A program made the translations under genes and the position numbers. Shown in pieces: positions 17,111-35,961 of a DNA stretch of 64,000 nt. The stretch covers positions 3,520-67,519 of IMG/VR virus record IMGVR_UViG_3300019373_000210; one strand, written 5' to 3'. Position 1 is the stretch's first letter. The number at the start of each line of letters is the position of its first letter. The notes under the pieces were generated by a model. It did no database searches. It saw only the letters and a list, made by a program, of their open reading frames with translations, and was not told where the DNA came from. This DNA is from a virus. Its lineage: Duplodnaviria > Caudoviricetes.

Positions 17111-17335
17111 TCACCGCCCGGGCTTGAAAAGGCCTCCCGTAAAAGGAAGGGCAGATGTATCGAGCGGTTCGCATTTTTCGGACTCCTTAGGTAATACTGG
17201 GCAAATCGCAAACTTGTATGATAACAGCTGCGCCCGTGACAAAGAAGCCCGATGCTTTGATTTCCGTATATCGACAACCCTTCTGGATGCGACCTGCAAT
17301 CCTATAGAAACTGAAAGATGAGTGTTTACGCCCAT
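17111..17335 (-). CDS. Possible 74-aa hypothetical protein
   Basis: Exactly fills the gap between the Sel1 and HpcH genes; no recognisable motif. Confidence 0.3.
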   Translation of the reverse strand: MGVNTHLSVSIGLQVASRRVVDIRKSKHRASLSRAQLLSYKFAICPVLPKESEKCEPLDTSALPFTGGLFKPGR

Positions 17336-18231
17336 TTCTCGCCAAGATCCTCCAGTTTTCTCCTTGCGTCATCATGTCCCAGTGAGGCAGCGGAGCGCAG
17401 CCATTTTTTGGCATTCTGCATGTCTCTTCTGACGCCTTGGCCCGTCGCTAGGGCCATCGCCACAGCATACTGCGCGTAAACATGCCCCTCGTTCGCCGCC
17501 TCAAGATATCGGTTGAAAGCCTTGTCGTATTCGGTGTTTCCTCGATAAATCTCACCGAGAGTGAAAAGGGCGTTCGGATCATCCAGCTCTTTCAGAATTG
17601 AAACCGCTCGCCTCGGGTCTTTTTCGATATCCAGCCCTTTCCACAACCGATTCGCCAGGTCCAAGCAGGCTTTAACATCGCCATTTTCTGCGGCCAGTTC
17701 GAGATATCGCATGCCCTTTGCAGCATCCCGGGAAACGCCTTTCCCCTTTAGATAGCTACTCGCCATGAAGATGAGCGACTCTGAACTGCCTTCATGCCAC
17801 GCCTCCTCAAGCAGCAAAAGCGCAATGGGCATATTCTTATCTTTCGGAAACAATCGATAATATTCCATGCCCTTTGCGTGCGTTTCTGCAGGATCAAGGG
17901 GCTCAGTGAGGCGCCTATCGAGCGTTCCTAGCAGTTTCTTAATCAGTTCGAGCAAGGCGATTCGGTCGTCAGCGCTAATAGGCAATTGCGCAATGGCCTC
18001 GCAAGCTCTTGAAAGCAATGAGGCCGGCGATTCATGCATTGCGGAGCCTTCGGCAATAGACTTGAAACCATTTGCGCGGGCGAATTCACGAATTTTGCGT
18101 TGCTCTGAGGGGAAAGCTGGCGCGTAATCACTAAGAATCGCAATAAACCGGGGCGTATCGTTGAGCGTAGCTACGCCATAATCGTTCAGAACAGCTGCAA
18201 ACGCCTCCTCTATCGTGTTGAATGCTTTCAT
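17326..18231 (-). CDS. Sel1-repeat protein
   Basis: C-terminal YLKGKGVSRDAAKG, LWKGLDIEKD, ALATGQGVRRD repeats; start ATG 18231 with GGAAGG RBS. Confidence 0.88.
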   Translation of the reverse strand: MKAFNTIEEAFAAVLNDYGVATLNDTPRFIAILSDYAPAFPSEQRKIREFARANGFKSIAEGSAMHESPASLLSRACEAIAQLPISADDRIALLELIKKLLGTLDRRLTEPLDPAETHAKGMEYYRLFPKDKNMPIALLLLEEAWHEGSSESLIFMASSYLKGKGVSRDAAKGMRYLELAAENGDVKACLDLANRLWKGLDIEKDPRRAVSILKELDDPNALFTLGEIYRGNTEYDKAFNRYLEAANEGHVYAQYAVAMALATGQGVRRDMQNAKKWLRSAASLGHDDARRKLEDLGEKWA

Positions 18232-18310
18232 TTGCCTTCCCGGTCTCGATGCCTTTTCGTTTCTTGAAGCCCTTTCGATAAACAAAGGGCTGCCCGGATT
18301 GCGTGTTGGG

Positions 18311-18943
18311 CTAGCCTAACAGTTCAGACAGCAATTTTTCCTGCTCATTCATGCTTATCACCATGCCTGAGTCGGCGAATTCGTGAAAGAAATCTAAGCT
18401 CTGGCAATCGGAGAGATCGTCATCGAAGGCCATGACTATCTTCCTGATATCGCCGTATCGCCCGACTCGCCTCCATTGCTCAAGGCTGTCCCGATAGTCT
18501 TCAGTTATCAATCCGTCGGAGAAAAGAACTACGTATTTGTCCGATTCGTCGACCATGTGCGTTTCCGCCAGGCTCGCAAGCTCTTGGAACAGCGCATTCG
18601 CGTTCGTCAGCCCATCGACCATCTCAACGTAACTATATTTAAAGCTTGCCGCAGGAACGAAGCCTTCGGTCCATTTGAACAACCGTCCCGAAAATCCTAT
18701 CGCCGAAACACTGATGGCCCCATTCTTGCCACGGTCTAGCGACCTAAGTTTGGAAACAGCATTGTTGACGCAATCGTTGATGGCCCCGATCTTATGACCT
18801 TGCATGCTGTTTGACGCATCGATGGCAAAAACCACCTGAATCTGCCTGCTTTCATACCTATCCGTACATGCACTGTCGGCGTCGTCTATCTCCTGTAGAA
18901 AACTGTCTATATCAAATTCGCCAAGTTCTATTGCATCGGGCAT
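18311..18943 (-). CDS. terY: TerY-like vWA protein (copy 2)
   Basis: VFAIDASNSMQGHKIGAINDCV; VLFSDG. Confidence 0.75.
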   Translation of the reverse strand: MPDAIELGEFDIDSFLQEIDDADSACTDRYESRQIQVVFAIDASNSMQGHKIGAINDCVNNAVSKLRSLDRGKNGAISVSAIGFSGRLFKWTEGFVPAASFKYSYVEMVDGLTNANALFQELASLAETHMVDESDKYVVLFSDGLITEDYRDSLEQWRRVGRYGDIRKIVMAFDDDLSDCQSLDFFHEFADSGMVISMNEQEKLLSELLG

Positions 18944-18955
18944 CTTCGACCTCCA

Positions 18956-21900
18956 CTAGAAGATATCCTCGCAAGAAATCTTGCCCGTAATCTCATTGAA
19001 CCATTCGCTGTTGGGAGTCGAGTACGGCCTGAACTTTTGCTTTCCGCGCCCCGCCTCGAAGTAGACGGCGTTGTTCTTGTTGATGCTTGGGTCTTTTACG
19101 ACGTCTGCAAAGTTCAGAGCCTCCTCATCGCTGAGATTGAACGCTATGCGCTTCTTGAATGCGTCAATCATGTTGGGGAATTTTTGCTGGAACAGAGTTA
19201 GGTCGTCGTGCCAGGCAATTGTGAATATGCCCTTTTCAGGTCCTTTTCTCAAGATTTCATCCAGCATGGTGAAACCTTGGCTGCTGCTGCTGTAAAGCCC
19301 GTTTTGGAAATCTGAAGCAAGGCCCAGATTGTTGATTATTATCCAGACGTACTCGCCGTCGTTCTGCTTCGACAGGTACAACCGATATACTTCTTCCAAC
19401 CTGTCAATAGCGTCGTACGATTCGGCTCCCTCGATAAAGTCTGGCAGGAGGAGCACCATTTCTTGCAGTTTATCTTGAATGGCCCCCTCTTCTGAATCGC
19501 TGAAGTTGAATACGTAGATTTGCGAGGCCGGCTGTCCGTCTTTGAGCGCCTTCAGCTTCTGCAAAACTAAATCCAAGGTGATGAAGAATAGGAGGTTATG
19601 TGCTTTCTGGGCGTCTTTACCCGCAAGAAGCATATTCTCGTTCTTCCGCATCTCGAATGGCACAGCAAGGCTTCGGTCAATTGCCAAGGCCTCGCCAAAG
19701 TGAATCTTTCGAGACTCCACGATTAAGTTGCCGTGGCGTAAATACTCCTGGAATACGCTATCACGGCTGTCGGCTACATCGGAAACAAGCACGCGGGTAT
19801 CGGACCGCCTAATGCCGCTTTGCGCGTAATGCGCTTCGACATCCTTCAAGATATCGTTGTGTGCTTCGGGGCTGATATACCCGACACGAAATCTATTGTT
19901 CGTCTTCGGCGTACTGATGGCCGGCAAATAGATTGCCGATCCAGCATCGTTGTCTTCAATCTGCGCTATGGCATCGCTCCCCGCGCCAAGAAGGATCTCG
20001 GCATCCTCTTTCGGGCATTTCAGGGCGATACGCACTGCAATCTGAGCCATTGCGGCCTCGTTTACCTCGTTGAGCCCTCTTACGCTCTGGGTGCAAAGAA
20101 TTACGTGTACACCATAGCTGCGTTTCAGCCTCAATATATTGTCGAGAAGCCGCGAAGCTTCGGACGAAACGGCCGCGTTGGCGCTGTTGAAGAGTTCGTG
20201 GAACTCGTCGATGACAACGAGCATGCGCGGCAACTTCCCGCTCCTCCTTGCTTCAGGGCTGTTGTTGTAAGCCGTGATGTCGCTGACGGAAATGCTGTTA
20301 AATAACTGCGATCGACGGTCGCCCTCTTTCATGATGTACTGCAAAACGCTCAGCCCGAATTCCTGCTCGCTCTCGATGGCGATGACTTTGAAGTTGGGTA
20401 AGTTGTAGTCGGCGTAAATCTTGAACTCGGTACCGCTCTTGAAATCGACAAGGTATATCTCGAGCTCTTCGTTCGAGTATTGCAATATGCAGCTTGTGAT
20501 AATCGCATGCAACAGGCGGCTCTTTCCGCTACCAATCTGACCGGCTATCAAGGCATGGATCGATTGGCTGCCTGGTTGCCCAAGGGTCAGGTATTGAATG
20601 TCGCTTGCGCCGCTCATTCCTATAGGTATCATCAAGCCTTCGCCGGAGCTGTACGAGAAAAGCTTTGAAGACGGTGGTGCGATATGCTTGTAGTCGATGA
20701 CGATTCGTCCGGCATCTTTGATTCCTTGTTTCATTGTCGGCGCAATGGATATGATCTTCTTTACACTGAGCGGCGGGTTTATCGTGTAGATCATATTCTC
20801 GTCAATGCCGTCTTTTGCTTCGAGGAAATAACCTTTCTTTCGAAGCGAGTAGACCGTTGCTGATGCCTCGATGTTGCCAATCTGCGCCTGGATTTTGGCG
20901 TCGGCTGCGGAAATCGCATCTGTGTTGCACATAATGACAACGTAGACGCCGCATTCCTTGCCGGTTGCGACAATCTGTTGCAGAAGGTCAACAGCCTTTG
21001 CCGAGAATCCTGCGGGGAAATCCATTATTCCGACGATGTTGTAAGGTTGCGGGTTAAGCGTGTTCGCCGCATTGTATTCGCGGATATTCGTGTACTGCCC
21101 CTTGAACGTGTTAATCTGCATCGTCTTTATGTGGTCGACGATTATCTGAAGCTGCTGCTCGATGCCGGATTCTTCTGTTTGAATTCCGCCGAGTATTACA
21201 TTGTAGCTGCGGCCCTGTTCATCCTCGAAATGCTTGAAGACCGCGAAGCTTTGGCCCGACTTCAACGGGTCGCAGAAATGGAATCTCATCTTGTTCGGCG
21301 GGGTAGACAGAAACGCGGTAAGGCATATCGTCTGGATGTGGTCTTTTGCCTGGGCCGCCTGTTCGTTCCCGTATTTGAACATTAGGCACAAGTTCTGATT
21401 GAGCCCGATGGTGAATGGAAATACAAAACTGTTCCCATTTATGACAGCTTGGTAGTTCGAGGTCATGATTCCCGATACCAAGCGATTGCTCAGTATCCGA
21501 TCGAGCTTGTACTCGAGAGAGCCTATGGTGATGTTTTCCGGCTCCGCAGTTGCGAGGGCAAAGTTGTTCGAGAGAGCTTTGGTTCTCGCCTTTTGGGTTT
21601 TCACAGCGTCGGCAATCGCCTGTGGCGGCACTTTTGTCAAAACGGTTTGTTGCAATGCCTGATAGGATGCAAACAGCTCCTGCTTCTTTTTCGAATCCAA
21701 ATCGGCAAGCTGTTGTTCGTGCTGTTCAAGCAATTCCTTCTTCTGCTGCGCATGCTTGGTGATCTCTTCGCTTCTCTGCTGATCGTATTTCCGGTTAAGC
21801 TCAGCGCAATAGCTGATGTATTCCTGCTTGTTCTTTGCTGCATCTTTGTCATGTTGAGCCATAAGAGACGTGAAACGCTGGCGCGCTTCTTCTACCATCT

Positions 21901-22705
21901 TGTTGGCTTTTGAATCGCTGTCCGGCAACAATGCATTAAGCTCGGCCAGCTCCTTTTGATAAAGTTGCTCGGCCTTCACGCGCATGGAATAGAACTCGAG
22001 AAACCTGCGATTAACCTCACTTCCCTTAACAGCCCTTCTTAAGAACTTCTCGTTCAGCACATTCAACTCTTCGACCATGATGTTCGGATGCATTGCATCG
22101 ATTGCCTCAAGAGTTGTCGCTGCAACTTCGACACATTCGGGCTGCTTGGCAATAAACCTTTTGTATCTCCAAGACGCAATCTGCTCTTCGGCTGCTCGAA
22201 GATTGGCCATTATCCTCTCTATGCGCTGCTTGCCGCTTTGCACTCGCTTACGCATATCCTCGCGGTATTTCTGGGAATTATCGTTAACTGCACGCTGGTC
22301 CCTCTTGTATGCGTCGGCCTCGCGCTGCGCATCGCTCAGGGTCTTCTTGTATTGAGATTCAACCTGGTCCAAAACCTTGGTTCGCTCGTACTCGATCTTT
22401 GAGAGCTCTTGCGAATGCCGCTCGTCACAATTCTTGATCTGACTAGCTTGGCTTGCCAGCATAGCCTCTTTCCGCTTTTTATAGTCATTATTGATTCCGC
22501 GGACCTTTTCAACGTATGCATCAAGCAGGCCCAGAAGAAGATGCAGGTTTCCAAGCGTTGTTTCCATCTCATCGTTGATTTGGGTCTGCACAAGGAGCTG
22601 CAAACTACTCGCATCCGCTCCGCAACCCGGGCAATACTCGGGTTCCTGGGGGCTTTCGAATTCTTTGTAACAATCGGAGCATAAGTATCTTGGCATGAGA
22701 TTCAC
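18956..22705 (-). CDS. FtsK/SpoIIIE (EccC/EssC-like) ATPase with N-terminal Zn ribbon and coiled coil, no TM segment
   Basis: CSDC...CPGC; AGQIGSGKS, IYLVDFKSGTEF, VVIDEFHELF, RSYGVHVILCTQ; flanked by two degenerate FtsK-like domains. Confidence 0.85.
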   Translation of the reverse strand: MNLMPRYLCSDCYKEFESPQEPEYCPGCGADASSLQLLVQTQINDEMETTLGNLHLLLGLLDAYVEKVRGINNDYKKRKEAMLASQASQIKNCDERHSQELSKIEYERTKVLDQVESQYKKTLSDAQREADAYKRDQRAVNDNSQKYREDMRKRVQSGKQRIERIMANLRAAEEQIASWRYKRFIAKQPECVEVAATTLEAIDAMHPNIMVEELNVLNEKFLRRAVKGSEVNRRFLEFYSMRVKAEQLYQKELAELNALLPDSDSKANKMVEEARQRFTSLMAQHDKDAAKNKQEYISYCAELNRKYDQQRSEEITKHAQQKKELLEQHEQQLADLDSKKKQELFASYQALQQTVLTKVPPQAIADAVKTQKARTKALSNNFALATAEPENITIGSLEYKLDRILSNRLVSGIMTSNYQAVINGNSFVFPFTIGLNQNLCLMFKYGNEQAAQAKDHIQTICLTAFLSTPPNKMRFHFCDPLKSGQSFAVFKHFEDEQGRSYNVILGGIQTEESGIEQQLQIIVDHIKTMQINTFKGQYTNIREYNAANTLNPQPYNIVGIMDFPAGFSAKAVDLLQQIVATGKECGVYVVIMCNTDAISAADAKIQAQIGNIEASATVYSLRKKGYFLEAKDGIDENMIYTINPPLSVKKIISIAPTMKQGIKDAGRIVIDYKHIAPPSSKLFSYSSGEGLMIPIGMSGASDIQYLTLGQPGSQSIHALIAGQIGSGKSRLLHAIITSCILQYSNEELEIYLVDFKSGTEFKIYADYNLPNFKVIAIESEQEFGLSVLQYIMKEGDRRSQLFNSISVSDITAYNNSPEARRSGKLPRMLVVIDEFHELFNSANAAVSSEASRLLDNILRLKRSYGVHVILCTQSVRGLNEVNEAAMAQIAVRIALKCPKEDAEILLGAGSDAIAQIEDNDAGSAIYLPAISTPKTNNRFRVGYISPEAHNDILKDVEAHYAQSGIRRSDTRVLVSDVADSRDSVFQEYLRHGNLIVESRKIHFGEALAIDRSLAVPFEMRKNENMLLAGKDAQKAHNLLFFITLDLVLQKLKALKDGQPASQIYVFNFSDSEEGAIQDKLQEMVLLLPDFIEGAESYDAIDRLEEVYRLYLSKQNDGEYVWIIINNLGLASDFQNGLYSSSSQGFTMLDEILRKGPEKGIFTIAWHDDLTLFQQKFPNMIDAFKKRIAFNLSDEEALNFADVVKDPSINKNNAVYFEAGRGKQKFRPYSTPNSEWFNEITGKISCEDIF

Positions 22706-22745
22706 TCTTCCCGTTTAGCAGCTTGGTCGCAATAGCTCATAATGG

Positions 22746-22979
22746 CTATAGTTCTATCGTTGTTGCATCCTTTAATTTTTCAACGTTTGCTGGTGGGAAG
22801 AAAGTTCTGATTTTGCCATTATCTTTATTGATTGCGAAAGGTGATATGTCAAGGGGCTCTCCGCTTTCCTTGTCGCCGGCAGACATAACAAATTCGTCAC
22901 CAACATCTAATGCTGAGATAATGGAGTAGTTCGGATACTCTGTTTCAAAAATTTCTTTAGCTTCGTCAAATGTCAACAT
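22746..22979 (-). CDS. Candidate immunity protein, 77 aa
   Basis: Small acidic ORF immediately downstream of the toxin. Confidence 0.6.
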   Translation of the reverse strand: MLTFDEAKEIFETEYPNYSIISALDVGDEFVMSAGDKESGEPLDISPFAINKDNGKIRTFFPPANVEKLKDATTIEL

Positions 22980-23065
22980 TTTCGTCCTATCCTTTGGTTA
23001 ACACTTATTTTCAACGAATCTCTTCTCGGTTTATTTCCCCTATCTTCAACAAGCCGATTGCTGTT

Positions 23066-24394: not shown

Positions 24395-24426
24395 GATTTT
24401 TGGCTTACCTTTTCTTTGAATCTAAG

Positions 24427-27758: not shown

Positions 27759-27820
27759 AATGAGCCCTCTTCCTTATACAAGGCATTTTGCCAAACCTAC
27801 TCTTATTGTATACGCCGAAA

Positions 27821-28345: not shown

Positions 28346-30057
28346 TGCGCTTCACCTCCCCGTTGTCTTGACCTCGAAGCAAATGGCCAACGCCTCCGCT
28401 CGCTCCTCTCAACATGGGGCTGGTTTTCGTCTGCTGGTGCTATTGGAAGGTCGGAAAACTCTGTTTTCCTTGGCGTGTCTCGCAATGCATCGGAATAGCT
28501 CGTTGCCGAATCGAGGTGTTGACTGCGAGCGAAATCGTCTGCCGTTATCTCGGGCAGTCGCAGAGTCGAAGTAGCCTCTATTGCTGCTGGCTTTTCTGGC
28601 TCTTCGATATTCGGGTTCGTTTGCAGAACATCATCCGAAACGGACGGCCGAACATCCAGCGTCAATTCGTCGCCGTCAACAATTCCAGAACTATCTCTGG
28701 TATTGTCCGTCAAACAATCCCCTGAACCTGCTGCCGCAAGTAACTCCTCAGCCTCTTCGTTGCCTGGGGCATCCGCAGGTGCCTCAACGGGCCCTCCCTC
28801 GATCTTTTCCAGGTTCTCCTCGTCACCGACATCGTTTTCATCATCGTTGAGTGGTTCGCCATCAATCTCGGGCTTGAACTCAAGCCCGATCTTCTCAAGC
28901 CTGGGAAACCAGAAATTCTCGGCTGACGCTTTGAAGCTTTCTGCCTTCTCCATCTGCTCTGTAGCCATATGTTCTCTTTCAGAAAGCTCGTCAACGTCTG
29001 CATCGATCGCTTCTTTTTCTTTCGCCACTGCATTGAAAAGCTCTTCTTTTTCCGCAAGCTTTTCCTTCAGCTCAACGATTTCCATCTCGATAGAATCATA
29101 TTGCTCTTCAAGGCCTGCAAGTTTTGCTTGAGCATCTGCGAGCTGAGCAGTGCATTGTTCTAACGCATCAGAGCACGATGAGACTTTCTCATATACCTGT
29201 TGTAGCGATTGCCGTGGTTTTGCAAGCAGGCTTTTTTGGGAAGTCATGGCCGCAATGCTTACATCATCGCCGCTGCCGCCCTCGCTAATCTGGGGAAGAA
29301 GATCATCAAGTTTTTCCCTCGTTGCTTCGAGGCCATTTTCCTTAAGCCAGTATCCAACGGAGTAGAAGCAGTTATATAGGCCAGCCTGATCGAAGCTCTC
29401 CTCAATTCCATCGGATGAGACGAATACGGCCAAAGGTTTGACGTTGCTGTAGTAATGCCGGAACGACTCTATTGCATTCGAGTTGCATAGTGATGTCGAC
29501 CTGTTCCCGAGGCAGTTTTCATCAACTGGCACCGGTTCGACGAACACTCCGTCGTTGTAAGCTGCAACGCATTTTCCATCGCCAATTTGAATAGCCAACC
29601 AGTAGCTACCCGTAACTATCGCCGCTATCAACGTGCAACCATAAGCCTTTTCGAATCGGTCGCCAGCCCCATAGACTTCGCGCGCCCGTTCCGAAGCCGC
29701 ATCAAGCTCTTCGGCAGTAAATGGATTTAGTTCGGCGTCTCGCAGAACCTTTTCCTTCCATCTATTCGCAATGTCGGATTCCAATGAAACAACCAGCGAT
29801 TCGAAATCGCATTGCGATAAGTCGTCGATATGATTGGTTACGCTCTGGAATCTGCGGAGCTCTCTGATTGCAACATCGCATGCGTGCATAGCGCCCAGGG
29901 CGCTTCTAAAGCAATTCTTGTCGCCATGGCCATCGCTAATCACGACGATGCTAAGTTGCTCATCCGAGTAAACTTCTGAGTAATCTTCGCAATCTAGCCC
30001 GTTAAGGACATGGCTTTTGCCAATGTGATGAGCATTGATTTCGATGTATGGCTGCAT
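28342..30057 (-). CDS. PP2C-family phosphatase (TerY-P triad) with coiled-coil and acidic tail
   Basis: HIGKSH..CED, VISDGHG, QIGDG, VSSDG, GDDVS. Confidence 0.88.
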   Translation of the reverse strand: MQPYIEINAHHIGKSHVLNGLDCEDYSEVYSDEQLSIVVISDGHGDKNCFRSALGAMHACDVAIRELRRFQSVTNHIDDLSQCDFESLVVSLESDIANRWKEKVLRDAELNPFTAEELDAASERAREVYGAGDRFEKAYGCTLIAAIVTGSYWLAIQIGDGKCVAAYNDGVFVEPVPVDENCLGNRSTSLCNSNAIESFRHYYSNVKPLAVFVSSDGIEESFDQAGLYNCFYSVGYWLKENGLEATREKLDDLLPQISEGGSGDDVSIAAMTSQKSLLAKPRQSLQQVYEKVSSCSDALEQCTAQLADAQAKLAGLEEQYDSIEMEIVELKEKLAEKEELFNAVAKEKEAIDADVDELSEREHMATEQMEKAESFKASAENFWFPRLEKIGLEFKPEIDGEPLNDDENDVGDEENLEKIEGGPVEAPADAPGNEEAEELLAAAGSGDCLTDNTRDSSGIVDGDELTLDVRPSVSDDVLQTNPNIEEPEKPAAIEATSTLRLPEITADDFARSQHLDSATSYSDALRDTPRKTEFSDLPIAPADENQPHVERSERRRWPFASRSRQRGGEAQ

Positions 30058-30069
30058 CTCTTCACCTCG

Positions 30070-31053
30070 CTAGAAATCGAAATCATGCTCCCAATCTATC
30101 TCGCCAATAGGCAATGTTGGGCTTGCGCTTACAGTTGCAGCCGGTTGGCTCACTGGTTGCAGCGGCTCGGGTGCGGCGCTTGCGCTTGTTTGCGGCTGAC
30201 TTTGCGCCGTTTGCGCTGGTGCAGGAGCGGGCGCAACTGTGGGCGCGGGAGCGTATGATGAATTGAACGTTGACGTTCCCTGCGCAACGCTTGTTGTCGT
30301 GTTCTGAATCGATCCTTGTTGAGTCACGAAATCTACACCCGTCAAAGTAACAAGCTCTATTTGTTTCGCTAGGATGACGGTGTTCTTCGCCTCGTATACG
30401 TTGCTCTCGTTTTCGGTGAACTCCATGAGGACACGCTTGCACTCTGGGCTAAGAGCGCCTTCTTCGATGGCGATTCCCGCCCTCGTGGAGAACTGGAACC
30501 ACTTGTTCCTTTTTAGCCGTTCGAGCTCTTCCCTGTAGAGCCCCATGTCAGACGGTTTTCCATCGGTCATGAATATTATGAGGGGCGTGTAGGCGCCGGC
30601 GGTGGAGTTGAGAAATTGCCTCCTGGAAAGCTTCTCGTTAAGAGCGGCAAAGGCCGTTCCGTAATTTGTGCATCCCCCGACCACGTCAATATCTTGGAAC
30701 TGATACGAGGACACCGGTTGTGGTGATATGGTCCGCCAGGTCGCTCTTGTCGAGAACTCCAATACGGCAATCTGCACTTCAGCGGCTGTGTTCCCGCGCT
30801 CCCGCTTTTTAAGCTCTGGAAGAACGTTTCTGATGGCATCGTTGACGGCGCCAATGCGAGCACCCCTCATGCTGCCTGAAACGTCCACGACGAAGAAGAC
30901 AACCATCGCCCTCTTCTTTAGCGACGTTACGATGTTGGAAACATCCGGAGTGGCAACGGGCTGGCTCTGCACGCTTACGCCGGTATCGAGGCTGTCAAAG
31001 TCGCCAAAATCGAACGAGTCGAGATCGAACGGATCAAAATCGCTACCCGCCAT
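30070..31053 (-). CDS. terY: TerY vWA protein (copy 1)
   Basis: FFVVDVSGSMRGARIGAVNDAI, TNYGTAF, FMTDGKPSD; between kinase and PP2C. Confidence 0.88.
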   Translation of the reverse strand: MAGSDFDPFDLDSFDFGDFDSLDTGVSVQSQPVATPDVSNIVTSLKKRAMVVFFVVDVSGSMRGARIGAVNDAIRNVLPELKKRERGNTAAEVQIAVLEFSTRATWRTISPQPVSSYQFQDIDVVGGCTNYGTAFAALNEKLSRRQFLNSTAGAYTPLIIFMTDGKPSDMGLYREELERLKRNKWFQFSTRAGIAIEEGALSPECKRVLMEFTENESNVYEAKNTVILAKQIELVTLTGVDFVTQQGSIQNTTTSVAQGTSTFNSSYAPAPTVAPAPAPAQTAQSQPQTSASAAPEPLQPVSQPAATVSASPTLPIGEIDWEHDFDF

Positions 31054-31070
31054 TGCAAATCACTCCCTTC

Positions 31071-32330
31071 CTAGAAAACCTTGCCTTTTATATTGCCGAA
31101 ATCAATAACGGTGCCATGAATGAGCGGGGCGAAGGCCTTTGGCTTAATCGTCGCTGGACCCTTGCCCGGCAAAGTGCAGACCCATTCTCCGTCAGAAAGG
31201 TTTCCGAGTCCGTATACGGTATTGTCCGATACGCTCGCCCGAACCATTCCGGAAGGAGTCTTGTAGTCCGTGCTTATCCGGTTCGTCTGGCAGTCGTAGA
31301 GGATGCTATCAGGCGAAAGCGCTATCGCCTGTTCTTCGGTCCTCAGCAGACGACAGCCTGGCGGGATTGTTTCGGGTTTATAGGCGTTTACAAACTGCTC
31401 TTTGCCGTCAAGCTTGACAAGCATGCCCCTGGCCTTGACCAGCACTTCGCGCCACTGCTGCTCCGTTATCCGGCTGTTGATGTCCTTTAGGCCTTTGGTA
31501 AACGCCTTCGTGAACGCCGCCGTGAGATCAGGCGGAAACATGGGCCATCGCATTATCACGTTGGGGTGAGCTTCGGGATCGGGCCTGTTGGTATTGTTGT
31601 CCGGATCGTAAACGAATATTGGTTTCTCGCCGAAAAGCTGAGCCCCGATTGCATCGGTTAAGGGGAACTGTATCGTGTATCTCCCCTCAAGCGGGTGGTC
31701 GATGTAGAACAGCCGGAACAAAATGATTGCGAGCGAGAAGCGGTCTGTATGGGTGTTGGGACGAACTTTGTTGGTCACGACTTCGGGCGCCATGTATTTT
31801 GGCATGCCCTTTACGCCGAGGTTCTCGCCGAAAGGAGCTACGTTGTCGTTGTCGCAAATCAGGACCTCTCCGTCATCTGGATTGATAAAGAAGCTACCCT
31901 CGTTCAGGTCCTGGTAGCTGTATCCCATGCTGTGCAATGCGAAAAAGCTCTCGACGATGTTCAGGGCCGCTTTGAACAACAGATCCCAGCTCTTGAACCT
32001 GGCGTCTCCCAGAAGGAATTCTCCGTATTCCCTGTAAAAAGACGGACGTAAGTCCATGATGTAACCGAATCTTCCGTTGACCTTCTCGGTTATCGCTTTT
32101 GGCCATAGGAAATGCTCGTCAGGCGCTCCGACTTTTATGTTGTGGGCAAGGTTTGCGTAAAATGCATCCGTTGGCACGATTTTGCTGTACCACTTCAATG
32201 CATATTCGCCGCCGTTGTAATCGACTCTGTAAACCTCGCCTTGTCCGCCCTCGGCGATATAGTCGATAATCCTGACGTATCGACCACCATCTAGCAGGGG
32301 TATGGTGTCGCCTTTCTTCAGTGTCGCCAT
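31071..32330 (-). CDS. Ser/Thr protein kinase (TerY-P triad)
   Basis: IAEGGQGEVY, ALKWY, YQDLNEGSF, ICDNDN, KYMAPE, TDRFSLA. Confidence 0.9.
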   Translation of the reverse strand: MATLKKGDTIPLLDGGRYVRIIDYIAEGGQGEVYRVDYNGGEYALKWYSKIVPTDAFYANLAHNIKVGAPDEHFLWPKAITEKVNGRFGYIMDLRPSFYREYGEFLLGDARFKSWDLLFKAALNIVESFFALHSMGYSYQDLNEGSFFINPDDGEVLICDNDNVAPFGENLGVKGMPKYMAPEVVTNKVRPNTHTDRFSLAIILFRLFYIDHPLEGRYTIQFPLTDAIGAQLFGEKPIFVYDPDNNTNRPDPEAHPNVIMRWPMFPPDLTAAFTKAFTKGLKDINSRITEQQWREVLVKARGMLVKLDGKEQFVNAYKPETIPPGCRLLRTEEQAIALSPDSILYDCQTNRISTDYKTPSGMVRASVSDNTVYGLGNLSDGEWVCTLPGKGPATIKPKAFAPLIHGTVIDFGNIKGKVF

Positions 32331-32349
32331 TTCACAATCCTTTTTTCGC

Positions 32350-35300
32350 CTATTCCACGGCCACTATTTTAATGCACTCGTCTTCACTCAATACATCCGA
32401 CATCTGGATGGTCTTGGCTTCTTCCTCGGTTATGCCCTCGGTGCGAACCACCCTCCGCATGAGCTTTGCAGCGGTCTTCTCGAAAACGGTTCTGGCAGTA
32501 CGCCCGTTGGAGTAATACTCCATAGTTGTCATCTTGTCGAAAATCGGAATGTAGTATTCCTCTACGCCGTCGGCGATGCTGTATCCAGCTTTCCTACAGA
32601 ACAAAGCAAAGATCTGATAGAGCTCTTCTGCTGAGAAATCGCGGAAATGCACTTCTTCGATTCTCGATCTCATGCCGCTATTGGACTTGTACAGCCCTTG
32701 CATGTCCTTTTCGTAGCCGGCCATAATGATGCAGCACTTAGCCCTATGCTCCGGGTCGTCCATGAACGCGATGATTTGCTCGAGCGCTTCCTTTTTGTAG
32801 CTCGTGTCCGAATGCGCGCCGTCGGCGTAGGAGAGGCTGTAGGCTTCGTCGATGAAAAGAACGCCGTTGATCGATTTTTTCAACAGCTCGTACGTCTTCT
32901 TGTCGGTTTCCCCCATGTACTGTCCGATTAGGTCCTTTGCGGTGCATGAGTAAAAGTTGCTTGTCTTTACGATGCCTAATTCGCGAAGGCATTCCCCGAA
33001 GAGCTTCGCGCTGGTCGACTTTCCCGTCCCGGGATTGCCAACGAAGAAATAATAGCCAGGAATGATGTCGTAGAGCGATAATCCGCTCTTCTGCGCGTAA
33101 ACCAATTGTTCCCGTTTTTGCAGGATGATTTCCTTCAAGTCGGAAAGGCCTATTTGCTCGTTGAGCTCGCTCATTATTTCGTCGAAGCTACGCGGGTTGA
33201 TTTGGTCTTTTATCAAATCGAGTTGATCTTGCGGTATGTCTTCAGCAACGTATTGGTAGCGGTCAACTCCTTCGCCAGCCATGCTGGTACGCTTTAGCAA
33301 GAGCTTCTTCATATCTATGACAAGCTTCTTAACTTCGCCTGCGTTTCCAAACGATTCTGTCCTTGTGTTGTACTTGTACTCCATCAGGAGCTCGATGAGG
33401 TGGTGGGCCTCATCCGTGATGGTTCGTCCCTGAGCTTCAATTGACTTGTCGAAAATCTTCACTAGCTGATCGGGCTTGTAATCGGGGAAGTCTACGATTC
33501 TTACGCGACGAGCGAGACCGGCGTTCAGCTTCAGGAAATCTTCAACGCGATTGGAATACATGCCGAATATCATCTTGAAGTCGGCCGCGTTCTCCGTCAT
33601 TTTCGTCATCATCGCGCCAACGATTTCGGCAGAGTACGCGGTATCAGCAATCTGGTATGCCTCATCGATGTAGAGGAGGGCGTTGTGGTCGATGGCTTCC
33701 TGGATTTTCTCCACTATCTTGTTTTTCGAGTCGCCAACATGGCTTCCTATTAGCTCTGAGGCGTCGACGAAAAGAGTCTCCGCCCCGCCTAGAACACCCA
33801 TGAGATGATAGAATTCGCCAATCATCTTGCCGACAGTAGTCTTGCCTGTTCCTGGATTCCCAGCGAAGATGAAGTGGTCCGGATAGACGTCGGGCTGGAT
33901 GCCCCTGCGCTTGCAATCCTCAACGTCGAGGATTTCCAAGCGAACGCTATCGAATAGCTCCTTGACGAAATCGAGCCCAACATATCTGTCTATTTCCGCA
34001 TAGATGTCATCAATCGAAGATACGCCGTGTTGTTCGAAGTATTTCGCGTAGCTCCCGAAGTCCTCTTTCTTTATGCACCGCTCGTCATCATCCCTCAGCG
34101 ATGATTGCATCTTGGCTTCTCTCGCAACGGAAACCACGTCGCGGGCGTTTCCGAAGTTTGCGCGATCCCTTTGCTCGTACATGTTCTTGAAGAAAAGATC
34201 GAGGTCGATCGGATCGTCTTCGCCCTCTCCGCTGCCCCACAGCCTGTAGCCGTCTTTCTTGCAGTTGTTGATGAAAATGGTCTTAAGGAGGTCTGGGCCA
34301 TAATCCTCGATGGTCAATATGTTGGCTTTGCTGAATCGGCTGCTCAAACCGGAATTCATCTTTAATAGCTCGTCCATGGGGTCTGGATAGCCAGCCATGA
34401 TCATGCAAAAGCGATACTGCTTGACGTTAGTCATAGCTGCAACGATTTCGTCTATCGCCTCTTTGGGATAGTTGTTCTCATCGCTCTTGTCCAAAAGTGA
34501 GTATGCATCGTCTATGAAGAGTACGCTTTCTTGAGCTTCGGCGATTTGCTCTCGCGTTCTGTTGGCCGTTCCGCCAACATATCTATCTACTAGGTCTTCT
34601 CTCGTAGCCTCAATGGTCAAGCCCTTTTTCAGGATCCCAGTCTCGTAGAATATCTGTCCAATTAGCCTTGCAACGGTCGTCTTTCCGACGCCGGGGTTTC
34701 CTTTTATTACGAAATGGGGTACCGGGTAATCGAAAACAACGTCGTCTTCTGGCGTGTCGATTCGCTCGTTCGAGCATACTTTCTTGCTGGCCTTCTTCTT
34801 TTTTGGCTTTTTCGCAAGCGCTCGCGCTTTCTTTTGGTTGTAATCGGCGACGATTTCGCTAATCCGTTTAGCAATGGATTCCCAGCCCCTCGTGTTCACG
34901 AGCGTTTCCATTGGGTCGGCATTATCGTTTGCCTCGAATTTACTGTAGATTGCCTTAATGGTCTCTTCAGTAATTGGGACGACGTCGCCCTCCTGTTGTT
35001 TCATGTACCAAACGACGTTTTCATATATGGTGCTTAGGTAACCCGCACGATTCTCCTCGCGGTCCGCCTCTCTGCTAAGGTACATGAGGGATGAGACTAT
35101 CTTTGGCATTTCTAGCCTATCAAAGGAAATCCTCTTGCCCTCATCGCCGACAATCCTCAGATAGTCCAACATGTATCGGAACTCATCCTGGTTGGGCAGC
35201 CCGATGTGTACAGTACAGCTTCGGTTTATCGATTTGTTGTCGTTGAAAAACCTGTTCCGGAAGACATTTCCACTAGCCAGCCCATCAAACAGTCGCGAAA

Positions 35301-35961
35301 TGGATTCGGCGTTCATTTGGGGCGCCAAGAAGATGCATATGTTCTCGTTGCTGTTAAGGGCGTATTCGTCCCAAAGATGCGAAAGCAGCTCTGAATATTG
35401 TTGCAACGGCGCAGAGCCGTCGGTGACGAAATCCTGAAAGAACGTAAACACGATGGCGGTCTTTACACTCGAGTCCGCCATCATCCTCTTGGCATCGTCC
35501 AGGAATTCTGCGGGGGTAATCTTTGGCTGCTTATAAACAAGCTTTGCGGGCGTTGCGTCACTAGCTGCTTCGGCGCTCGGCTCGCTTGCCTTTTCATTCG
35601 CCGTCGCTGCTTGATCGTTGTTCGCTGCAGGTTGCGATTGAGCATGCGGGCTCAATATGCGGCGCTTCTTCTTCGGCGTGCCAGCGGATGGACCAGAAGG
35701 CTGATTTAGTGAGCCAGCACCGCCCTTGTCCTTGTTTTTGTTAATCGCAAGTAAGGCGCTCTGGTCATCGAGGACGTACTTGCCCGTGTTCTTTGCCCCT
35801 GAGTAGAATACGATTTGCTCATATCCCAAACTCCTCAGGTACGAGTTCAGAAACGGTCGAAAATTGTTCTTTTGCAAATCGGGCGACATGAACATGTCGT
35901 CAAGGTTTCCGTAGACGAGAAATATCTTGTTTATCTCCGGACGTTCGAAAATTGAACTCAT
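32350..35961 (-). CDS. Triple-domain AAA+ ATPase of the CbxX/SpoVK/EccA family
   Basis: GNPGVGKT/LFIDDAY, GNPGTGKT/LYIDEAY, GNPGTGKS/LFIDEAY. Confidence 0.9.
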   Translation of the reverse strand: MSSIFERPEINKIFLVYGNLDDMFMSPDLQKNNFRPFLNSYLRSLGYEQIVFYSGAKNTGKYVLDDQSALLAINKNKDKGGAGSLNQPSGPSAGTPKKKRRILSPHAQSQPAANNDQAATANEKASEPSAEAASDATPAKLVYKQPKITPAEFLDDAKRMMADSSVKTAIVFTFFQDFVTDGSAPLQQYSELLSHLWDEYALNSNENICIFLAPQMNAESISRLFDGLASGNVFRNRFFNDNKSINRSCTVHIGLPNQDEFRYMLDYLRIVGDEGKRISFDRLEMPKIVSSLMYLSREADREENRAGYLSTIYENVVWYMKQQEGDVVPITEETIKAIYSKFEANDNADPMETLVNTRGWESIAKRISEIVADYNQKKARALAKKPKKKKASKKVCSNERIDTPEDDVVFDYPVPHFVIKGNPGVGKTTVARLIGQIFYETGILKKGLTIEATREDLVDRYVGGTANRTREQIAEAQESVLFIDDAYSLLDKSDENNYPKEAIDEIVAAMTNVKQYRFCMIMAGYPDPMDELLKMNSGLSSRFSKANILTIEDYGPDLLKTIFINNCKKDGYRLWGSGEGEDDPIDLDLFFKNMYEQRDRANFGNARDVVSVAREAKMQSSLRDDDERCIKKEDFGSYAKYFEQHGVSSIDDIYAEIDRYVGLDFVKELFDSVRLEILDVEDCKRRGIQPDVYPDHFIFAGNPGTGKTTVGKMIGEFYHLMGVLGGAETLFVDASELIGSHVGDSKNKIVEKIQEAIDHNALLYIDEAYQIADTAYSAEIVGAMMTKMTENAADFKMIFGMYSNRVEDFLKLNAGLARRVRIVDFPDYKPDQLVKIFDKSIEAQGRTITDEAHHLIELLMEYKYNTRTESFGNAGEVKKLVIDMKKLLLKRTSMAGEGVDRYQYVAEDIPQDQLDLIKDQINPRSFDEIMSELNEQIGLSDLKEIILQKREQLVYAQKSGLSLYDIIPGYYFFVGNPGTGKSTSAKLFGECLRELGIVKTSNFYSCTAKDLIGQYMGETDKKTYELLKKSINGVLFIDEAYSLSYADGAHSDTSYKKEALEQIIAFMDDPEHRAKCCIIMAGYEKDMQGLYKSNSGMRSRIEEVHFRDFSAEELYQIFALFCRKAGYSIADGVEEYYIPIFDKMTTMEYYSNGRTARTVFEKTAAKLMRRVVRTEGITEEEAKTIQMSDVLSEDECIKIVAVE

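What the first reader, a model, noticed from the sequence alone, without database searches (positions are those of the whole stretch)
17326..35961. Candidate new system: ESX/type VII-like toxin machine without membrane-channel genes, fused into a Ter operon
Seen, in one co-oriented and partly overlapping run: triple EccA/SpoVK-like AAA, kinase, TerY, PP2C, two small helical proteins, HerA-like ATPase, papain-fold toxin with a homologous helical N-terminus, small immunity-like ORF, EccC/EssC-like FtsK, second TerY, Sel1. None of these has an obvious TM helix, and no EccB/D/E, EssA/B or EsaA equivalent is visible. Knowledge: T7SS uses FtsK ATPases, WXG/LXG hairpin heterodimers and EccA; TerY-PP2C-kinase triads have been reported as anti-phage systems. 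Inference: a phosphorylation-gated, ATP-driven device that holds a toxin-hairpin complex and releases or unfolds it inside the cell on infection or stress (abortive defence), or exports it by an unknown pore (possibly 36000-38992). I know of no characterised system with this combination.
Basis: partly seen in the sequence, partly recalled or inferred. Interest (0 to 1): 0.88.

Follow-up and report, generated by a model that had tools for sequence, protein, structure and literature searches.

The report
Anchorless type VII-like toxin module in Ter operon
A conserved operon of gut and rumen Clostridia joins membrane-anchor-less relatives of type VII and type IV secretion ATPases, a kinase/phosphatase switch and swappable toxin-immunity cassettes inside a tellurite-resistance (Ter) gene cluster; its parts have been noted in comparative-genomics papers, but nobody has tested how, or whether, the toxin leaves the cell.

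Summary
Every listed gene is present on the minus strand in a tight operon. No ORF in 17326-35961 has a hydrophobic helix. The immunity-like ORF is 22746-22979.

The combination is not chance. The same gene order recurs in several Clostridia metagenome genomes and in the isolate Butyrivibrio sp. AC2005. The FtsK-like and 937-aa ATPases, with two small helical proteins, still sit together at 32-46% identity in loci without Ter genes.

New here:
- The 937-aa "HerA-like" ATPase has a VirB4-type N-domain (Z 15.2). EccE3 is a weaker match (Z 8.6).
- The toxin is a true polymorphic toxin. One N-domain, a paralogue of the 163-aa protein, is joined to at least 11 unrelated C-termini. The recombination break lies at about 23,990 and 22,690.
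- All four carrier genomes tested also hold a canonical membrane EssC/WXG100 locus, against 4-21% of sampled relatives.

The system is not unprecedented. TerY-P triads with WXG/FtsK genes (2012, 2016), anchorless EssC, SpoVK and EccE3-HerA inserts between duplicated vWA genes (2024), and vWA-kinase-phosphatase T7SS variants (2024) are in print.

Best reading (0.45): a regulated cytoplasmic loading and targeting module for exported polymorphic toxins, with the membrane conduit encoded elsewhere. Abortive defence remains possible (0.3). This is a new variant of a known kind.

The parts
32350..35961 (-). 1203-aa protein with an unknown N-domain (about 1-400) and three tandem AAA+ modules of the CbbX/SpoVK/EccA family
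   Evidence: Pfam AAA x3 and AAA_lid_6. Best PDB sequence matches are CbbX (E 5e-34) and EccA1 (E 9e-27). Walker A motifs at 421, 701 and 975. Conserved upstream of the kinase in L001, L002, L007, L009 and G404.
31071..32330 (-). Ser/Thr-type protein kinase (TerY-P triad) with a C-terminal domain of about 120 aa and unknown fold
   Evidence: Pfam Pkinase E 1.9e-9. The Gly-rich loop, the Lys and the catalytic D-x-x-x-x-N are readable in the sequence.
30070..31053 (-). TerY-like vWA protein 1, with an intact MIDAS motif and acidic-aromatic termini
   Evidence: Pfam VWA_2/VWA. DxSxS...T...D read.
28342..30057 (-). PP2C phosphatase with a coiled coil and a disordered acidic tail
   Evidence: Pfam PP2C_2 E 1.3e-28. 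Its stop overlaps the start of the next gene by 4 nt.
27821..28345 (-). 174-aa helical protein with an invariant N-x-F-G-x-x-A motif and a conserved basic C-terminal tail (KVLRR)
   Evidence: Alignment A2. No Pfam or PDB match above noise. Conserved in all related loci.
27267..27758 (-). 163-aa helical protein, a paralogue of the toxin N-domain, with an invariant FG(K/R)xA motif
   Evidence: BLASTP against toxin residues 1-146, E 6e-7. Alignment A1. Duplicated next to each toxin cassette in L004.
24427..27240 (-). 937-aa VirB4-like ATPase: a VirB4/EccE-like N-domain (1-358) plus a HerA/FtsK-superfamily P-loop domain (Walker A at 396)
   Evidence: Pfam DUF87. AlphaFold model of residues 1-375, pLDDT 74. 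TrwK/VirB4 N-domain Z 15.2, 264 aa, rmsd 3.9. ESX-3 chains 6sgz_D/6umm_A Z 8.1-8.6.
23066..24394 (-). Polymorphic toxin: a conserved helical N-domain (about 1-165), a linker, and a C-terminal papain-fold Gln_amidase tip (296-403)
   Evidence: Pfam PF15644 E 8e-14. The N-domain is joined to at least 11 unrelated C-termini. DNA homology to other loci ends near 23,990.
22746..22979 (-). 77-aa immunity-like ORF that co-varies with the toxin tip. GC 0.39.
   Evidence: 64% identical in L001, which has the same tip. Replaced by other small ORFs where the tip differs. GC.
18956..22705 (-). EssC/EccC-like FtsK ATPase without a membrane anchor: Zn ribbon, a coiled coil of about 350 aa, and three P-loop-like domains of which only the middle one is intact
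   Evidence: Sequence. Walker A at 722 and Walker B at 829 only. Best PDB matches are YukB, EccC5 and EccC D1. No hydrophobic segment.
18311..18943 (-). TerY-like vWA protein 2 (short form)
   Evidence: Pfam VWA families. DxSxS, T and D are present.
17326..18285 (-). Sel1/TPR repeat protein
   Evidence: Pfam Sel1 E 1.7e-20. A Sel1/TPR gene follows the FtsK gene also in L018 and L019.
36000..37514 (-). 504-aa membrane-anchored helical-bundle protein, conserved directly upstream of the AAA+ gene. A candidate membrane partner.
   Evidence: TM segment at 2-38. Model pLDDT 84: TM helix, long bundle and a C-terminal alpha/beta domain. No significant fold match. 90 clusters in 1.84 billion proteins.
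37535..38992 (-). 485-aa soluble paralogue of the 504-aa protein
   Evidence: BLASTP E 3e-6. Conserved in L006 and L021.
8641..17103 (-). Downstream Ter-associated genes: C-C lyase, PRTase-TRSP, StiP-PELOTA, HAD, a 188-aa membrane protein, ATP-grasp_Ter, Macro, a third vWA and an ADP-ribosylglycohydrolase
   Evidence: Pfam.
39099..46157 (-). Upstream Ter genes: P-type cation ATPase, four TerD paralogues, an NrdG-like radical-SAM protein and a 382-aa coiled-coil protein
   Evidence: Pfam. Same order in L006 and L021.

Best explanation
This is a cytoplasmic or peripheral loading and targeting module for a family of polymorphic toxins. It is derived from type VII/type IV secretion ATPases and is wired into the Ter stress-response cluster.

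Shown:
- The toxin has a conserved helical N-domain and a swappable C-terminal tip, followed by a matching small immunity gene.
- Two small helical proteins, one of them a paralogue of the N-domain, are always encoded with an EssC-like FtsK ATPase and a VirB4-like ATPase.
- In this clade a triple CbbX/EccA-type AAA+ protein, a TerY-kinase-PP2C triad, a second TerY and a Sel1 protein complete the operon.

Inferred:
- The small proteins and the toxin N-domain form a helical bundle, like EsxA/B or LXG-Lap complexes. The EssC-like hexamer recognises this bundle, perhaps through the conserved KVLRR tail or the FGxxA turn.
- The VirB4-like ATPase docks the complex at the membrane.
- The AAA+ protein acts as an EccA-like chaperone or disassembler.
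- The vWA-kinase-phosphatase triad gates activity by phosphorylation in response to a Ter-sensed metal, metabolite or envelope signal.
- The toxin is then passed across the membrane through a conduit that is not part of the conserved core. The most likely conduit is the canonical membrane EssC/T7SS that every tested carrier genome also encodes. The anchored 504-aa/485-aa pair is the alternative. The exported toxin would kill competitors that lack the immunity gene.
For: Synteny:
- The gene order is conserved over 50-89% identity in six loci, including a cultured isolate.
- The FtsK-like ATPase, the VirB4-like ATPase and two small helical proteins persist together at 32-46% identity in loci L019 and L020, which lack Ter genes.

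Polymorphic-toxin signature:
- 56 protein clusters share the N-domain at 54-75% identity and carry at least 11 unrelated C-termini.
- The recognisable tips are Gln_amidase, Peptidase_C39-like, Tox-GHH and WHH/colicin-DNase.
- One or two toxin plus small-ORF cassettes lie between the two ATPase genes.
- DNA homology breaks at about 23,990 and resumes at about 22,690.
- The Gln_amidase tip is shared at 46-61% identity with phage MuF and minor-capsid carriers, that is, with delivered toxins.

ATPase affinities: YukB/EccC D1, VirB4 N-domain Z 15.2, CbbX/EccA1.

Co-occurrence with a canonical T7SS:
- All four carrier genomes tested hold a long EssC with WXG100 genes elsewhere. A TM segment in that EssC and an adjacent YukD gene were checked only in G001.
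- WXG100 passes the Pfam cut-off in 13/301 genomes sampled at class level, and in 19/151 and 32/151 at family level.

Precedent: vWA, kinase and PPM phosphatase are reported core parts of T7SSc (PMC11217815).
Against: - No conserved membrane channel gene lies in the module. The membrane proteins near it differ between variants.
- The EssC-like protein lacks the TM helices on which T7SS pores are built.
- The small proteins show no sequence similarity to WXG100 of the same genomes, and none to any solved structure.
- The link to a canonical T7SS rests on four genomes. Their relatedness is unknown, and three are MAGs.
- TerY-P triads are reported as stand-alone anti-phage systems (Gao 2020, as cited in PMC11090510), and Ter clusters are linked to phage resistance. 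That fits an intracellular role equally well.
- No expression or secretion data exist.
Confidence: 0.45

Rival explanations
1. The module is an intracellular abortive-infection or stress-suicide device. The toxin is held inactive by its immunity protein and helical partners. On phage infection or envelope stress, the TerY-kinase-PP2C switch licenses the ATPases to strip or unfold the inhibitor. The toxin then acts in the producing cell, so no channel is needed.
For: - No ORF of the module has a TM helix, and no channel gene is conserved.
- Bell et al. note that the missing TM domains argue for a mechanism other than classical secretion.
- TerY-P-like triads are reported as stand-alone anti-phage systems.
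- The island sits beside a type III R-M system and a YhcG nuclease, inside a phage-like element.
- PADLOC gives partial hits of the ATPases to defence ATPases (mad8, SspH, IetA).
Against: - Dedicated, co-varying immunity genes, tandem toxin-immunity cassettes and recombinational tip swapping are the signature of toxins aimed at other cells.
- The tips (Tox-GHH, WHH, Gln_amidase) belong to the secreted or injected polymorphic-toxin pool.
- Carriers are enriched for a canonical T7SS.
- TerY, kinase and PP2C of the window gave no PADLOC hit to a TerY-P model at E <= 0.001.
Confidence: 0.3
2. The module is a remnant or derivative of a Gram-positive type IV (conjugation-like) apparatus. In that reading a VirB4 ATPase and an FtsK-type coupling protein move DNA or DNA-bound proteins, and the nuclease toxins are a DNA-processing arm of the Ter/TerY-P system.
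For: - The N-domain of the 937-aa ATPase matches TrwK/VirB4 at Z 15.2.
- FtsK-type coupling proteins also match the active domain (6o1w, E 1e-8).
- Several tips are HNH-fold DNases.
- Earlier papers tie TerY-P to DNA-processing modules.
Against: - The window holds no relaxase and no VirB3/6/8-like genes.
- The FtsK protein has the tandem three-domain EssC/EccC layout and scores best against YukB/EccC.
- Many tips are peptidase or deamidase domains, not nucleases.
- The two small helical partners are a T7SS-like feature.
Confidence: 0.07
3. There is no single machine. Several independent conflict modules (TerY-P, an AAA+ system, a toxin-immunity pair, ATPases) merely accumulate side by side in a defence island.
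For: - The window is a low-GC island (about 0.50 against 0.63-0.65) beside R-M genes and phage genes.
- Sub-modules occur separately elsewhere. Bell et al. describe EssC, SpoVK and EccE3-HerA inserts as three different variants.
- L019 and L020 lack some of the parts.
Against: - The order is fixed and the spacing is operon-like or overlapping.
- The order persists across 50-89% identity.
- In L004 and L018 the Ter ATP-grasp and HAD genes lie between the PP2C and VirB4-like genes, so the parts are interleaved.
- The toxin cassettes always sit between the two ATPase genes.
Confidence: 0.08

Closest known systems
TerY-P triad clusters with WXG/FtsK genes (Anantharaman, Iyer & Aravind 2012; Uchiyama et al. 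2016, PMC4978471)
   Same: A TerY vWA, a PP2C and a Ser/Thr kinase sit in one operon with an FtsK-family ATPase, small helical proteins and an HNH-fold nuclease toxin. The citing papers call this a 'minimal type VII secretion set'.
   Different: - Those clusters are in Proteobacteria/Campylobacterota and carry McrBC-type genes.
- Here the cluster sits inside a full Ter operon of Clostridia.
- It adds a VirB4-like ATPase and a triple AAA+ protein.
- Its toxins share a previously unnamed N-domain.
- The 2012 paper itself could not be read here.
[quoted passage not shown] 2024, PMC11090510)
   Same: - An EssC-like ATPase without TM helices, with an N-terminal coiled coil and only the central P-loop domain active.
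- A pair of small helical proteins.
- A coiled-coil-plus-nuclease protein followed by a small protein.
- SpoVK-type AAA+ proteins.
- 'EccE3-HerA' VirB4-like ATPases.
- All of these lie between duplicated TerY vWA genes.
   Different: - In that paper the three ATPases define three alternative variants. Here all three are in one operon.
- The window has no McrB/McrC (CnuB/C), CnuH/E or CARF genes.
- The AAA+ protein here has three intact modules rather than two modules with one active.
- The polymorphic nature of the toxin was not described there.
T7SSb LXG toxins with Lap targeting factors, and the T7SSc-j variants (Klein et al. 2022, PMC9600955; Garrett et al. 2024, PMC11217815)
   Same: - A toxin with a helical N-domain and a variable tip.
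- Two small helical partner proteins.
- An immunity gene downstream.
- An EssC-family ATPase.
- A cytoplasmic vWA, a kinase and a PPM phosphatase as conserved parts of T7SSc.
- An AAA+ accessory ATPase.
   Different: - All described variants have a membrane-bound EssC and a Pfam-recognisable WXG100 protein.
- Here the ATPase is soluble.
- The small proteins match neither WXG100 nor LXG models.
- A VirB4-like second ATPase is present.
- YukD is absent from the record.
VirB4 (TrwK) of type IV secretion and EccE of ESX systems
   Same: The N-domain fold of the 937-aa ATPase matches TrwK at Z 15.2 and ESX-3 chains at Z 8.1-8.6. The protein has a HerA/FtsK-superfamily P-loop domain.
   Different: Sequence identity is 4-6%. 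No VirB3/6/8 partners are present. EccE has two TM helices and no ATPase domain.
MuF-type phage polymorphic toxins
   Same: The same Gln_amidase tip, at 46-61% identity, sits on PF04233 (Phage_Mu_F) and PF06152 carriers.
   Different: The carrier domain and the presumed delivery route differ. The window's toxin has no MuF domain.

Membership tests
Type VII secretion system (ESX/Ess) | FtsK-family EccC/EssC ATPase with tandem P-loop domains | tested here: met
   Best PDB sequence matches are YukB (E 3e-19), EccC5 and T. curvata EccC, aligned on their D1 domain. Three P-loop-like domains, of which only the middle one has Walker A/B.
Type VII secretion system (ESX/Ess) | The ATPase is membrane-embedded (N-terminal TM helices) and forms the pore with EssA/EssB/EsaA or EccB/D/E | tested here: not met
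   No hydrophobic segment in the 1249-aa protein or in any ORF of 17326-35961. Pfam YukC finds nothing in the record. Only a weak EccE3-like fold match, Z 8.6, for a soluble domain.
Type VII secretion system (ESX/Ess) | WXG100-family substrate or partner protein | tested here: inconclusive
   No Pfam WXG100 or LXG hit in the record. hhalign of the 163-aa, 174-aa and toxin-N profiles against WXG100 proteins of the carrier genomes gives probability <= 14%. A conserved FGxxA turn-like motif is present.
Type VII secretion system (ESX/Ess) | YukD/EsaB ubiquitin-like component (T7SSb and most new variants) | tested here: not met
   PF08817 finds nothing in the 67.5-kb record. It is present in the separate canonical locus of G001.
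TerY-P triad (Anantharaman 2012) | TerY-type vWA, PP2C phosphatase and Ser/Thr kinase as adjacent co-directional genes | tested here: met
   Pfam Pkinase, VWA/VWA_2 and PP2C_2 on three consecutive genes at 28342-32330. The catalytic and MIDAS residues are readable.
Stand-alone TerY-P anti-phage system (Gao 2020) | Match to the defence-system protein models; kinase fused to an OB fold | tested here: inconclusive
   The PADLOC scan gave no hit for the vWA protein. The kinase hit only mad6/PD-T4-6 models, and the PP2C protein hit only coiled-coil models. The fold of the kinase C-terminal domain was not determined.
Polymorphic toxin systems (Zhang et al. 2012) | A conserved N-terminal carrier domain joined to unrelated, exchangeable C-terminal toxin domains | tested here: met
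   56 clusters share the N-domain (54-75% identity) with at least 11 C-terminal classes. Known toxin domains are PF15644, PF15636, PF14414/PF12639 and PF13529. The DNA homology break lies at about 23,990.
Polymorphic toxin systems (Zhang et al. 2012) | A cognate immunity gene immediately downstream that co-varies with the tip | tested here: met
   The 77-aa ORF is 64% identical in L001, which has the same tip. Different small ORFs (61-176 aa) follow different tips in L002, L004, L007, L009 and L018. Protection itself was not tested.
Polymorphic toxin systems (Zhang et al. 2012) | The toxin is exported or delivered to another cell | not testable with these tools
   The toxin has no signal peptide or TM segment. 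The route is inferred only.
Type IV secretion system | VirB4 ATPase with its characteristic N-domain | tested here: met
   VIA-align Z 15.2, 264 residues, rmsd 3.9 to TrwK (7o42_E). This stands well above the next unrelated folds at Z <= 7.
Type IV secretion system | VirB3/VirB6/VirB8-type membrane parts, and a relaxase for conjugative systems | tested here: not met
   None appears among the Pfam results for the window ORFs scanned between 8.6 and 49 kb.
CoCoNuT type III-A (Bell 2024) | CnuB/McrB GTPase, CnuC/McrC and CnuH/CnuE core genes | tested here: not met
   No McrB, McrC/DUF2357, HEPN or CARF domain appears in any scanned ORF of the window.

The most novel reading that the evidence does not exclude
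The conserved pair of a soluble EssC-like ATPase and a soluble VirB4/EccE-like ATPase, with their FGxxA helical partners, is a self-sufficient machine that needs no dedicated pore. Two versions of this reading are open. In the first, it is a living intermediate between type IV and type VII secretion that docks on unrelated membrane proteins. In the second, it is an intracellular toxin-release device, gated by a Ter-sensed signal through the vWA-kinase-phosphatase switch. Under the second version, polymorphic toxin-immunity cassettes would be used for abortive defence rather than for competition.
Probability: 0.22. Interest if true: 0.85.

Novelty: new variant of a known kind. Interest (0 to 1): 0.62.

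Why it matters
Three open questions meet in one operon, which is present in a cultured rumen isolate (Butyrivibrio sp. AC2005).

- What Ter clusters and TerY-P triads actually regulate.
- How an EssC-type ATPase can work without a membrane anchor.
- How type IV (VirB4) and type VII (EccC/EccE) ATPases are related.

The toxin N-domain family, with at least 11 tip classes, defines an unnamed carrier class of polymorphic toxins in gut and rumen Clostridia. The enrichment of canonical T7SS loci in carrier genomes gives a simple genetic test: does the module need essC?

If the toxin proves to act inside the producer, polymorphic toxin-immunity cassettes would enter the repertoire of abortive defence.

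Tried and rejected
Complex prediction
- Complex prediction (163-aa + 174-aa + toxin N-domain) was asked for four times.

Small helical proteins
- Profile searches of the small proteins against PDB sequences found only coiled-coil noise.
- hhalign of the 163-aa/toxin-N profile against the 174-aa profile aligns the FG motifs, but at probability 3%.
- hhalign against real WXG100 proteins gave nothing.

The 504-aa and 485-aa proteins
- ESM Atlas look-ups gave no usable lead.
- Fold searches with the 504-aa model gave no significant match. The top weak rows were alpha-pore-forming toxins (SmhA, AhlB, ClyA, NheA) at Foldseek E >= 0.24 or Z 6.7-7.5. That is within the noise for helical bundles, so a pore-former reading is not supported.

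Wider searches
- Distant homologues of the 937-aa ATPase domain occur in 12 other genomes of the 399 Clostridia scored. The eight whose surroundings were fetched hold no other module gene. They are not the same system.
- A scan of IMG/VR viral contigs for the 937-aa protein found no other record.

Island boundaries
- No flanking direct repeats longer than 13 nt mark the edges of the island.

Literature and smaller points
- The Anantharaman 2012 paper is not held. Its content is quoted only through papers that cite it.
- The 92-aa ORF at 22336-22614 was rejected as a gene because it lies out of frame inside the FtsK ORF.

Full report
WHAT IS THERE

The window is bases 3520-67519 of a 67.5-kb IMG/VR virus record. 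From about 8.6 to 46.2 kb it holds a run of co-directional minus-strand genes. GC there is near 0.50, against 0.63-0.65 in the flanks.

The gene order, reading with transcription, was assigned with Pfam:
- P-type cation ATPase, then four TerD paralogues.
- An NrdG-like radical-SAM protein, then three coiled-coil proteins of 382, 485 and 504 aa.
- A 1203-aa protein with three AAA+ modules.
- Protein kinase, TerY-type vWA and PP2C.
- Small proteins of 174 and 163 aa.
- A 937-aa DUF87/HerA-type ATPase.
- A 442-aa toxin ending in Gln_amidase (papain fold toxin 1).
- A 77-aa ORF.
- A 1249-aa FtsK/SpoIIIE protein.
- A second vWA and a Sel1 protein.
- The Ter-linked biosynthetic set: C-C lyase, PRTase-TRSP, StiP-PELOTA, HAD, ATP-grasp_Ter.
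- Macro, a third vWA and an ADP-ribosylglycohydrolase.

Intergenic gaps inside 17326-35961 are -4 to 86 nt. Promoter- and terminator-like sites are no more frequent than in shuffles.

Three details change:
- The immunity-like ORF is 22746-22979. The 92-aa ORF at 22336-22614 is out of frame inside the FtsK gene.
- A hydropathy scan finds no membrane helix in any ORF of the finding. The 504-aa protein immediately upstream has one at residues 2-38.
- The "HerA-like" protein is VirB4-like (see below).

THE PARTS

FtsK protein. It begins with a CxxC...CxxC zinc ribbon and about 350 residues of coiled coil. Three P-loop-like domains follow. Only the middle one keeps Walker A (GSGKS, 722) and Walker B (VIDE, 829). 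Its best solved relatives are B. subtilis YukB (E 3e-19), EccC5 and T. curvata EccC, all aligned on their D1 domain. This matches the anchorless EssC homologue described by Bell et al. 2024.

AAA+ protein. It is closest to CbbX (E 5e-34) and EccA1 (E 9e-27), and has three intact Walker A motifs.

937-aa ATPase. An AlphaFold model of residues 1-375 was built from an alignment of eight homologues (pLDDT 74, pTM 0.77).
- It aligns to the N-domain of TrwK/VirB4 at Z 15.2 (264 residues, rmsd 3.9).
- The next family is the ESX-3 core-complex chain that Bell et al. identify as EccE3, at Z 8.1-8.6.
- Unrelated folds score Z 7 or less.

504-aa protein. The model is good (pLDDT 84). It shows a TM helix, a long helical bundle and a small alpha/beta domain. 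It has no significant structural relative. It is a paralogue of the soluble 485-aa protein (E 3e-6). The family is small: 90 clusters at 50% identity among 1.84 billion proteins.

163-aa protein. It is a paralogue of toxin residues 1-146 (E 6e-7).
- Both share an invariant FG(K/R)xA motif.
- The 174-aa protein has an invariant NxFGxxA motif and a conserved KVLRR tail.
- Homology between the two small-protein families is not significant.
- None of them resembles WXG100 proteins taken from the carrier genomes or any solved chain.

IS THE COMBINATION REAL?

Yes.
- The order AAA+ - kinase - TerY - PP2C - 174 aa - 163 aa - VirB4-like - toxin/immunity - FtsK - TerY - Sel1 - C-C lyase - PRTase - StiP recurs in L001, L002, L007 and L009.
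- A rearranged form occurs in L004 and in the cultured isolate Butyrivibrio sp. AC2005 (L018, L021, L022). There the Ter ATP-grasp and HAD genes lie between the PP2C and the VirB4-like gene. The parts are interleaved with Ter genes, not merely adjacent.
- The upstream block, from the P-type ATPase to the 504-aa protein, is kept as well.
- At greater distance, the FtsK-like and VirB4-like ATPases stay together with two small helical proteins: 34% and 46% identity in L019, 32% and 39% in L020.
- L019 also has a ClpB-like AAA+ protein, a PP2C, a TM-anchored kinase, a DedA/VTT membrane protein and a TPR/Sel1 protein, but no Ter genes. L020 has neither kinase nor Ter genes.
- The invariant core is therefore the two ATPases plus the helical pair. 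The Ter embedding and the triple AAA+ protein belong to this clade.
- The module is rare. One of 399 Clostridia genomes scored holds the close form. More distant ATPase-domain homologues sit in unrelated contexts.

THE TOXIN IS POLYMORPHIC

- A search with toxin residues 1-165 found 56 protein clusters at 54-75% identity.
- Their C-terminal parts fall into at least 11 classes with no mutual similarity.
- Recognisable tips are Gln_amidase, Peptidase_C39-like, Tox-GHH and WHH/colicin-DNase.
- Loci carry one or two toxin-plus-small-ORF cassettes, always between the two ATPase genes. In L004 each cassette has its own copy of the 163-aa gene.
- At DNA level, similarity between the window and loci with other tips stops near 23,990 and resumes near 22,690. 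That interval is the tip plus the immunity ORF, and the ORF has a GC of 0.39.
- The window's tip occurs at 46-61% identity on phage MuF (PF04233) and minor-capsid (PF06152) carriers, and on about ten other N-termini.

WHERE COULD THE TOXIN GO?

The record itself is too short to ask about the rest of the genome. In the four carrier genomes that could be searched (G001, G002, G003 and G404, which is Butyrivibrio sp. AC2005), a separate locus holds a 1521-1566-aa EssC beside one to five WXG100 genes.
- In G001, the only locus examined in detail, that EssC has a TM segment and is adjacent to YukD, a DUF6382-FHA protein and a large envelope protein.
- WXG100 passes the Pfam cut-off in 13 of 301 genomes sampled from the class, 19 of 151 from the family of G001 and 32 of 151 from the family of G404.
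- Four out of four is thus unlikely by chance, roughly 1e-3 at family rates.
- The caveats are that the sample is tiny, three genomes are MAGs, and their relatedness is not controlled.

MECHANISM

Best reading (0.45): a regulated, cytoplasmic loading and targeting module for exported polymorphic toxins. The two ATPases and the helical partners handle the toxin. The triple AAA+ protein acts as an EccA-like chaperone. The vWA-kinase-PP2C triad acts as the gate. The conduit is supplied from outside the conserved core, most likely by the canonical T7SS and otherwise by the anchored 504/485-aa pair.

What is shown: gene content, conservation, domain relationships, toxin polymorphism and co-occurrence. 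What is inferred: every step of handling, gating and export.

The main rival (0.3) is release of the toxin inside the producer as abortive defence.
- It is favoured by the lack of any anchor or channel and by the reported anti-phage role of TerY-P-like triads.
- It is disfavoured by cognate immunity genes, tandem cassettes and tip exchange with delivered toxins.

Two further readings are less likely: a type IV-like DNA-handling role (0.07), and a mere pile-up of independent modules (0.08).

COMPARISON WITH WHAT IS KNOWN

- Bell et al. 2024 describe anchorless EssC with two WXG100-like proteins, a coiled-coil-nuclease and a small protein after it. They also describe SpoVK-type AAA+ proteins and EccE3-HerA/VirB4-like ATPases. 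Each is inserted between duplicated TerY genes, as three alternative extensions of McrBC-type CoCoNuT systems.
- Garrett et al. 2024 report a cytoplasmic vWA, a kinase and a PPM phosphatase as core parts of T7SSc, always with a membrane-bound ATPase.

The window differs in five ways. It combines all three ATPases in one operon. It lacks McrBC genes. It lies inside a full Ter cluster. It shows that the FtsK-like and VirB4-like ATPases are an obligate pair. It carries a named-by-nobody polymorphic toxin carrier domain. None of these systems has been tested at the bench. I therefore class it as a new variant of a known kind, not a categorically new system.

CONTEXT NOTICED

The island sits inside a phage-like element.
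- Integrase, primase, terminase and portal lie at 53.7-63.8 kb.
- Scaffold, major head protein, adaptor, Dit, tail-associated lysin and a collagen-like fibre lie at 0.6-7.9 kb.
- A type III R-M pair and a YhcG nuclease lie between the portal gene and the island.
- In the other genomes the module lies on long chromosomal contigs.

LIMITS

- The TM calls come from hydropathy only.
- The small proteins were not folded.
- The 2012 paper was not readable.

Noticed in passing
window 574-7930 and 53668-63784: The 38-kb Ter/toxin island, together with a type III R-M pair and a YhcG nuclease, lies between the portal gene (53668-55380) and the scaffold and major-head genes (7295-7930, 6269-7282) of a phage-like element with an integrase (62000-63784). 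No tail tube or tape-measure gene was seen between the head-tail adaptor and Dit. The record is an IMG/VR entry with 57% estimated completeness. A chimeric assembly is not excluded.
   Followed up: partly
window 46344-50573 and 52387-53544: A type III restriction-modification pair (ResIII helicase 46344-48950, N6_N4 methylase 48960-50573) and a YhcG/DUF1016 PD-(D/E)xK nuclease lie directly upstream of the Ter cluster.
   Followed up: no
window 8641-11583: The distal end of the Ter cluster carries a Macro-domain protein, a third vWA protein with an intact DxSxS MIDAS motif, and an ADP-ribosylglycohydrolase. This hints at ADP-ribose signalling or reversal tied to the predicted nucleoside-like Ter metabolite.
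   Followed up: no
window 30070-31053 and 18311-18943: Both TerY-like vWA proteins begin with an acidic-aromatic motif (FDPFDLDSFDFGDFD; EFDIDSF). The longer one also ends with DWEHDFDF. These may be short linear docking motifs, for example for the Sel1 or AAA+ proteins.
   Followed up: no
window 27821-28345: The 174-aa protein keeps a basic C-terminal tail (KVLRR) in all homologues, including the 219-220-aa forms in L018 and L004. A similar QKRL end is seen in L019. This may be a recognition signal for an ATPase.
   Followed up: partly
window 39099-46157: This Ter cluster has four TerD paralogues, a P-type cation ATPase and an NrdG-like radical-SAM protein. No TerB or TerC was recognised in the window. 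Butyrivibrio sp. AC2005 has seven TerD copies at the same place (L021).
   Followed up: partly
L005 (G001:C6:26000-45900): The canonical T7SS locus of a carrier genome holds a 1403-aa envelope protein with Ig-like domains, a DUF6382-FHA protein, a ParA/MinD-like ATPase, YukD, a 1509-aa EssC with a TM segment, a WXG100 gene and YwqH-like helical proteins. It resembles the T7SSe/f/j layouts of Garrett et al. 2024.
   Followed up: partly
L019 and L020: Distant versions of the two-ATPase core sit beside different membrane proteins. L019 has a kinase with C-terminal TM helices and a DedA/VTT protein. L020 has an Lgt-like 6-TM protein and a 2-TM protein. The membrane partner, if any, is not conserved.
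   Followed up: partly
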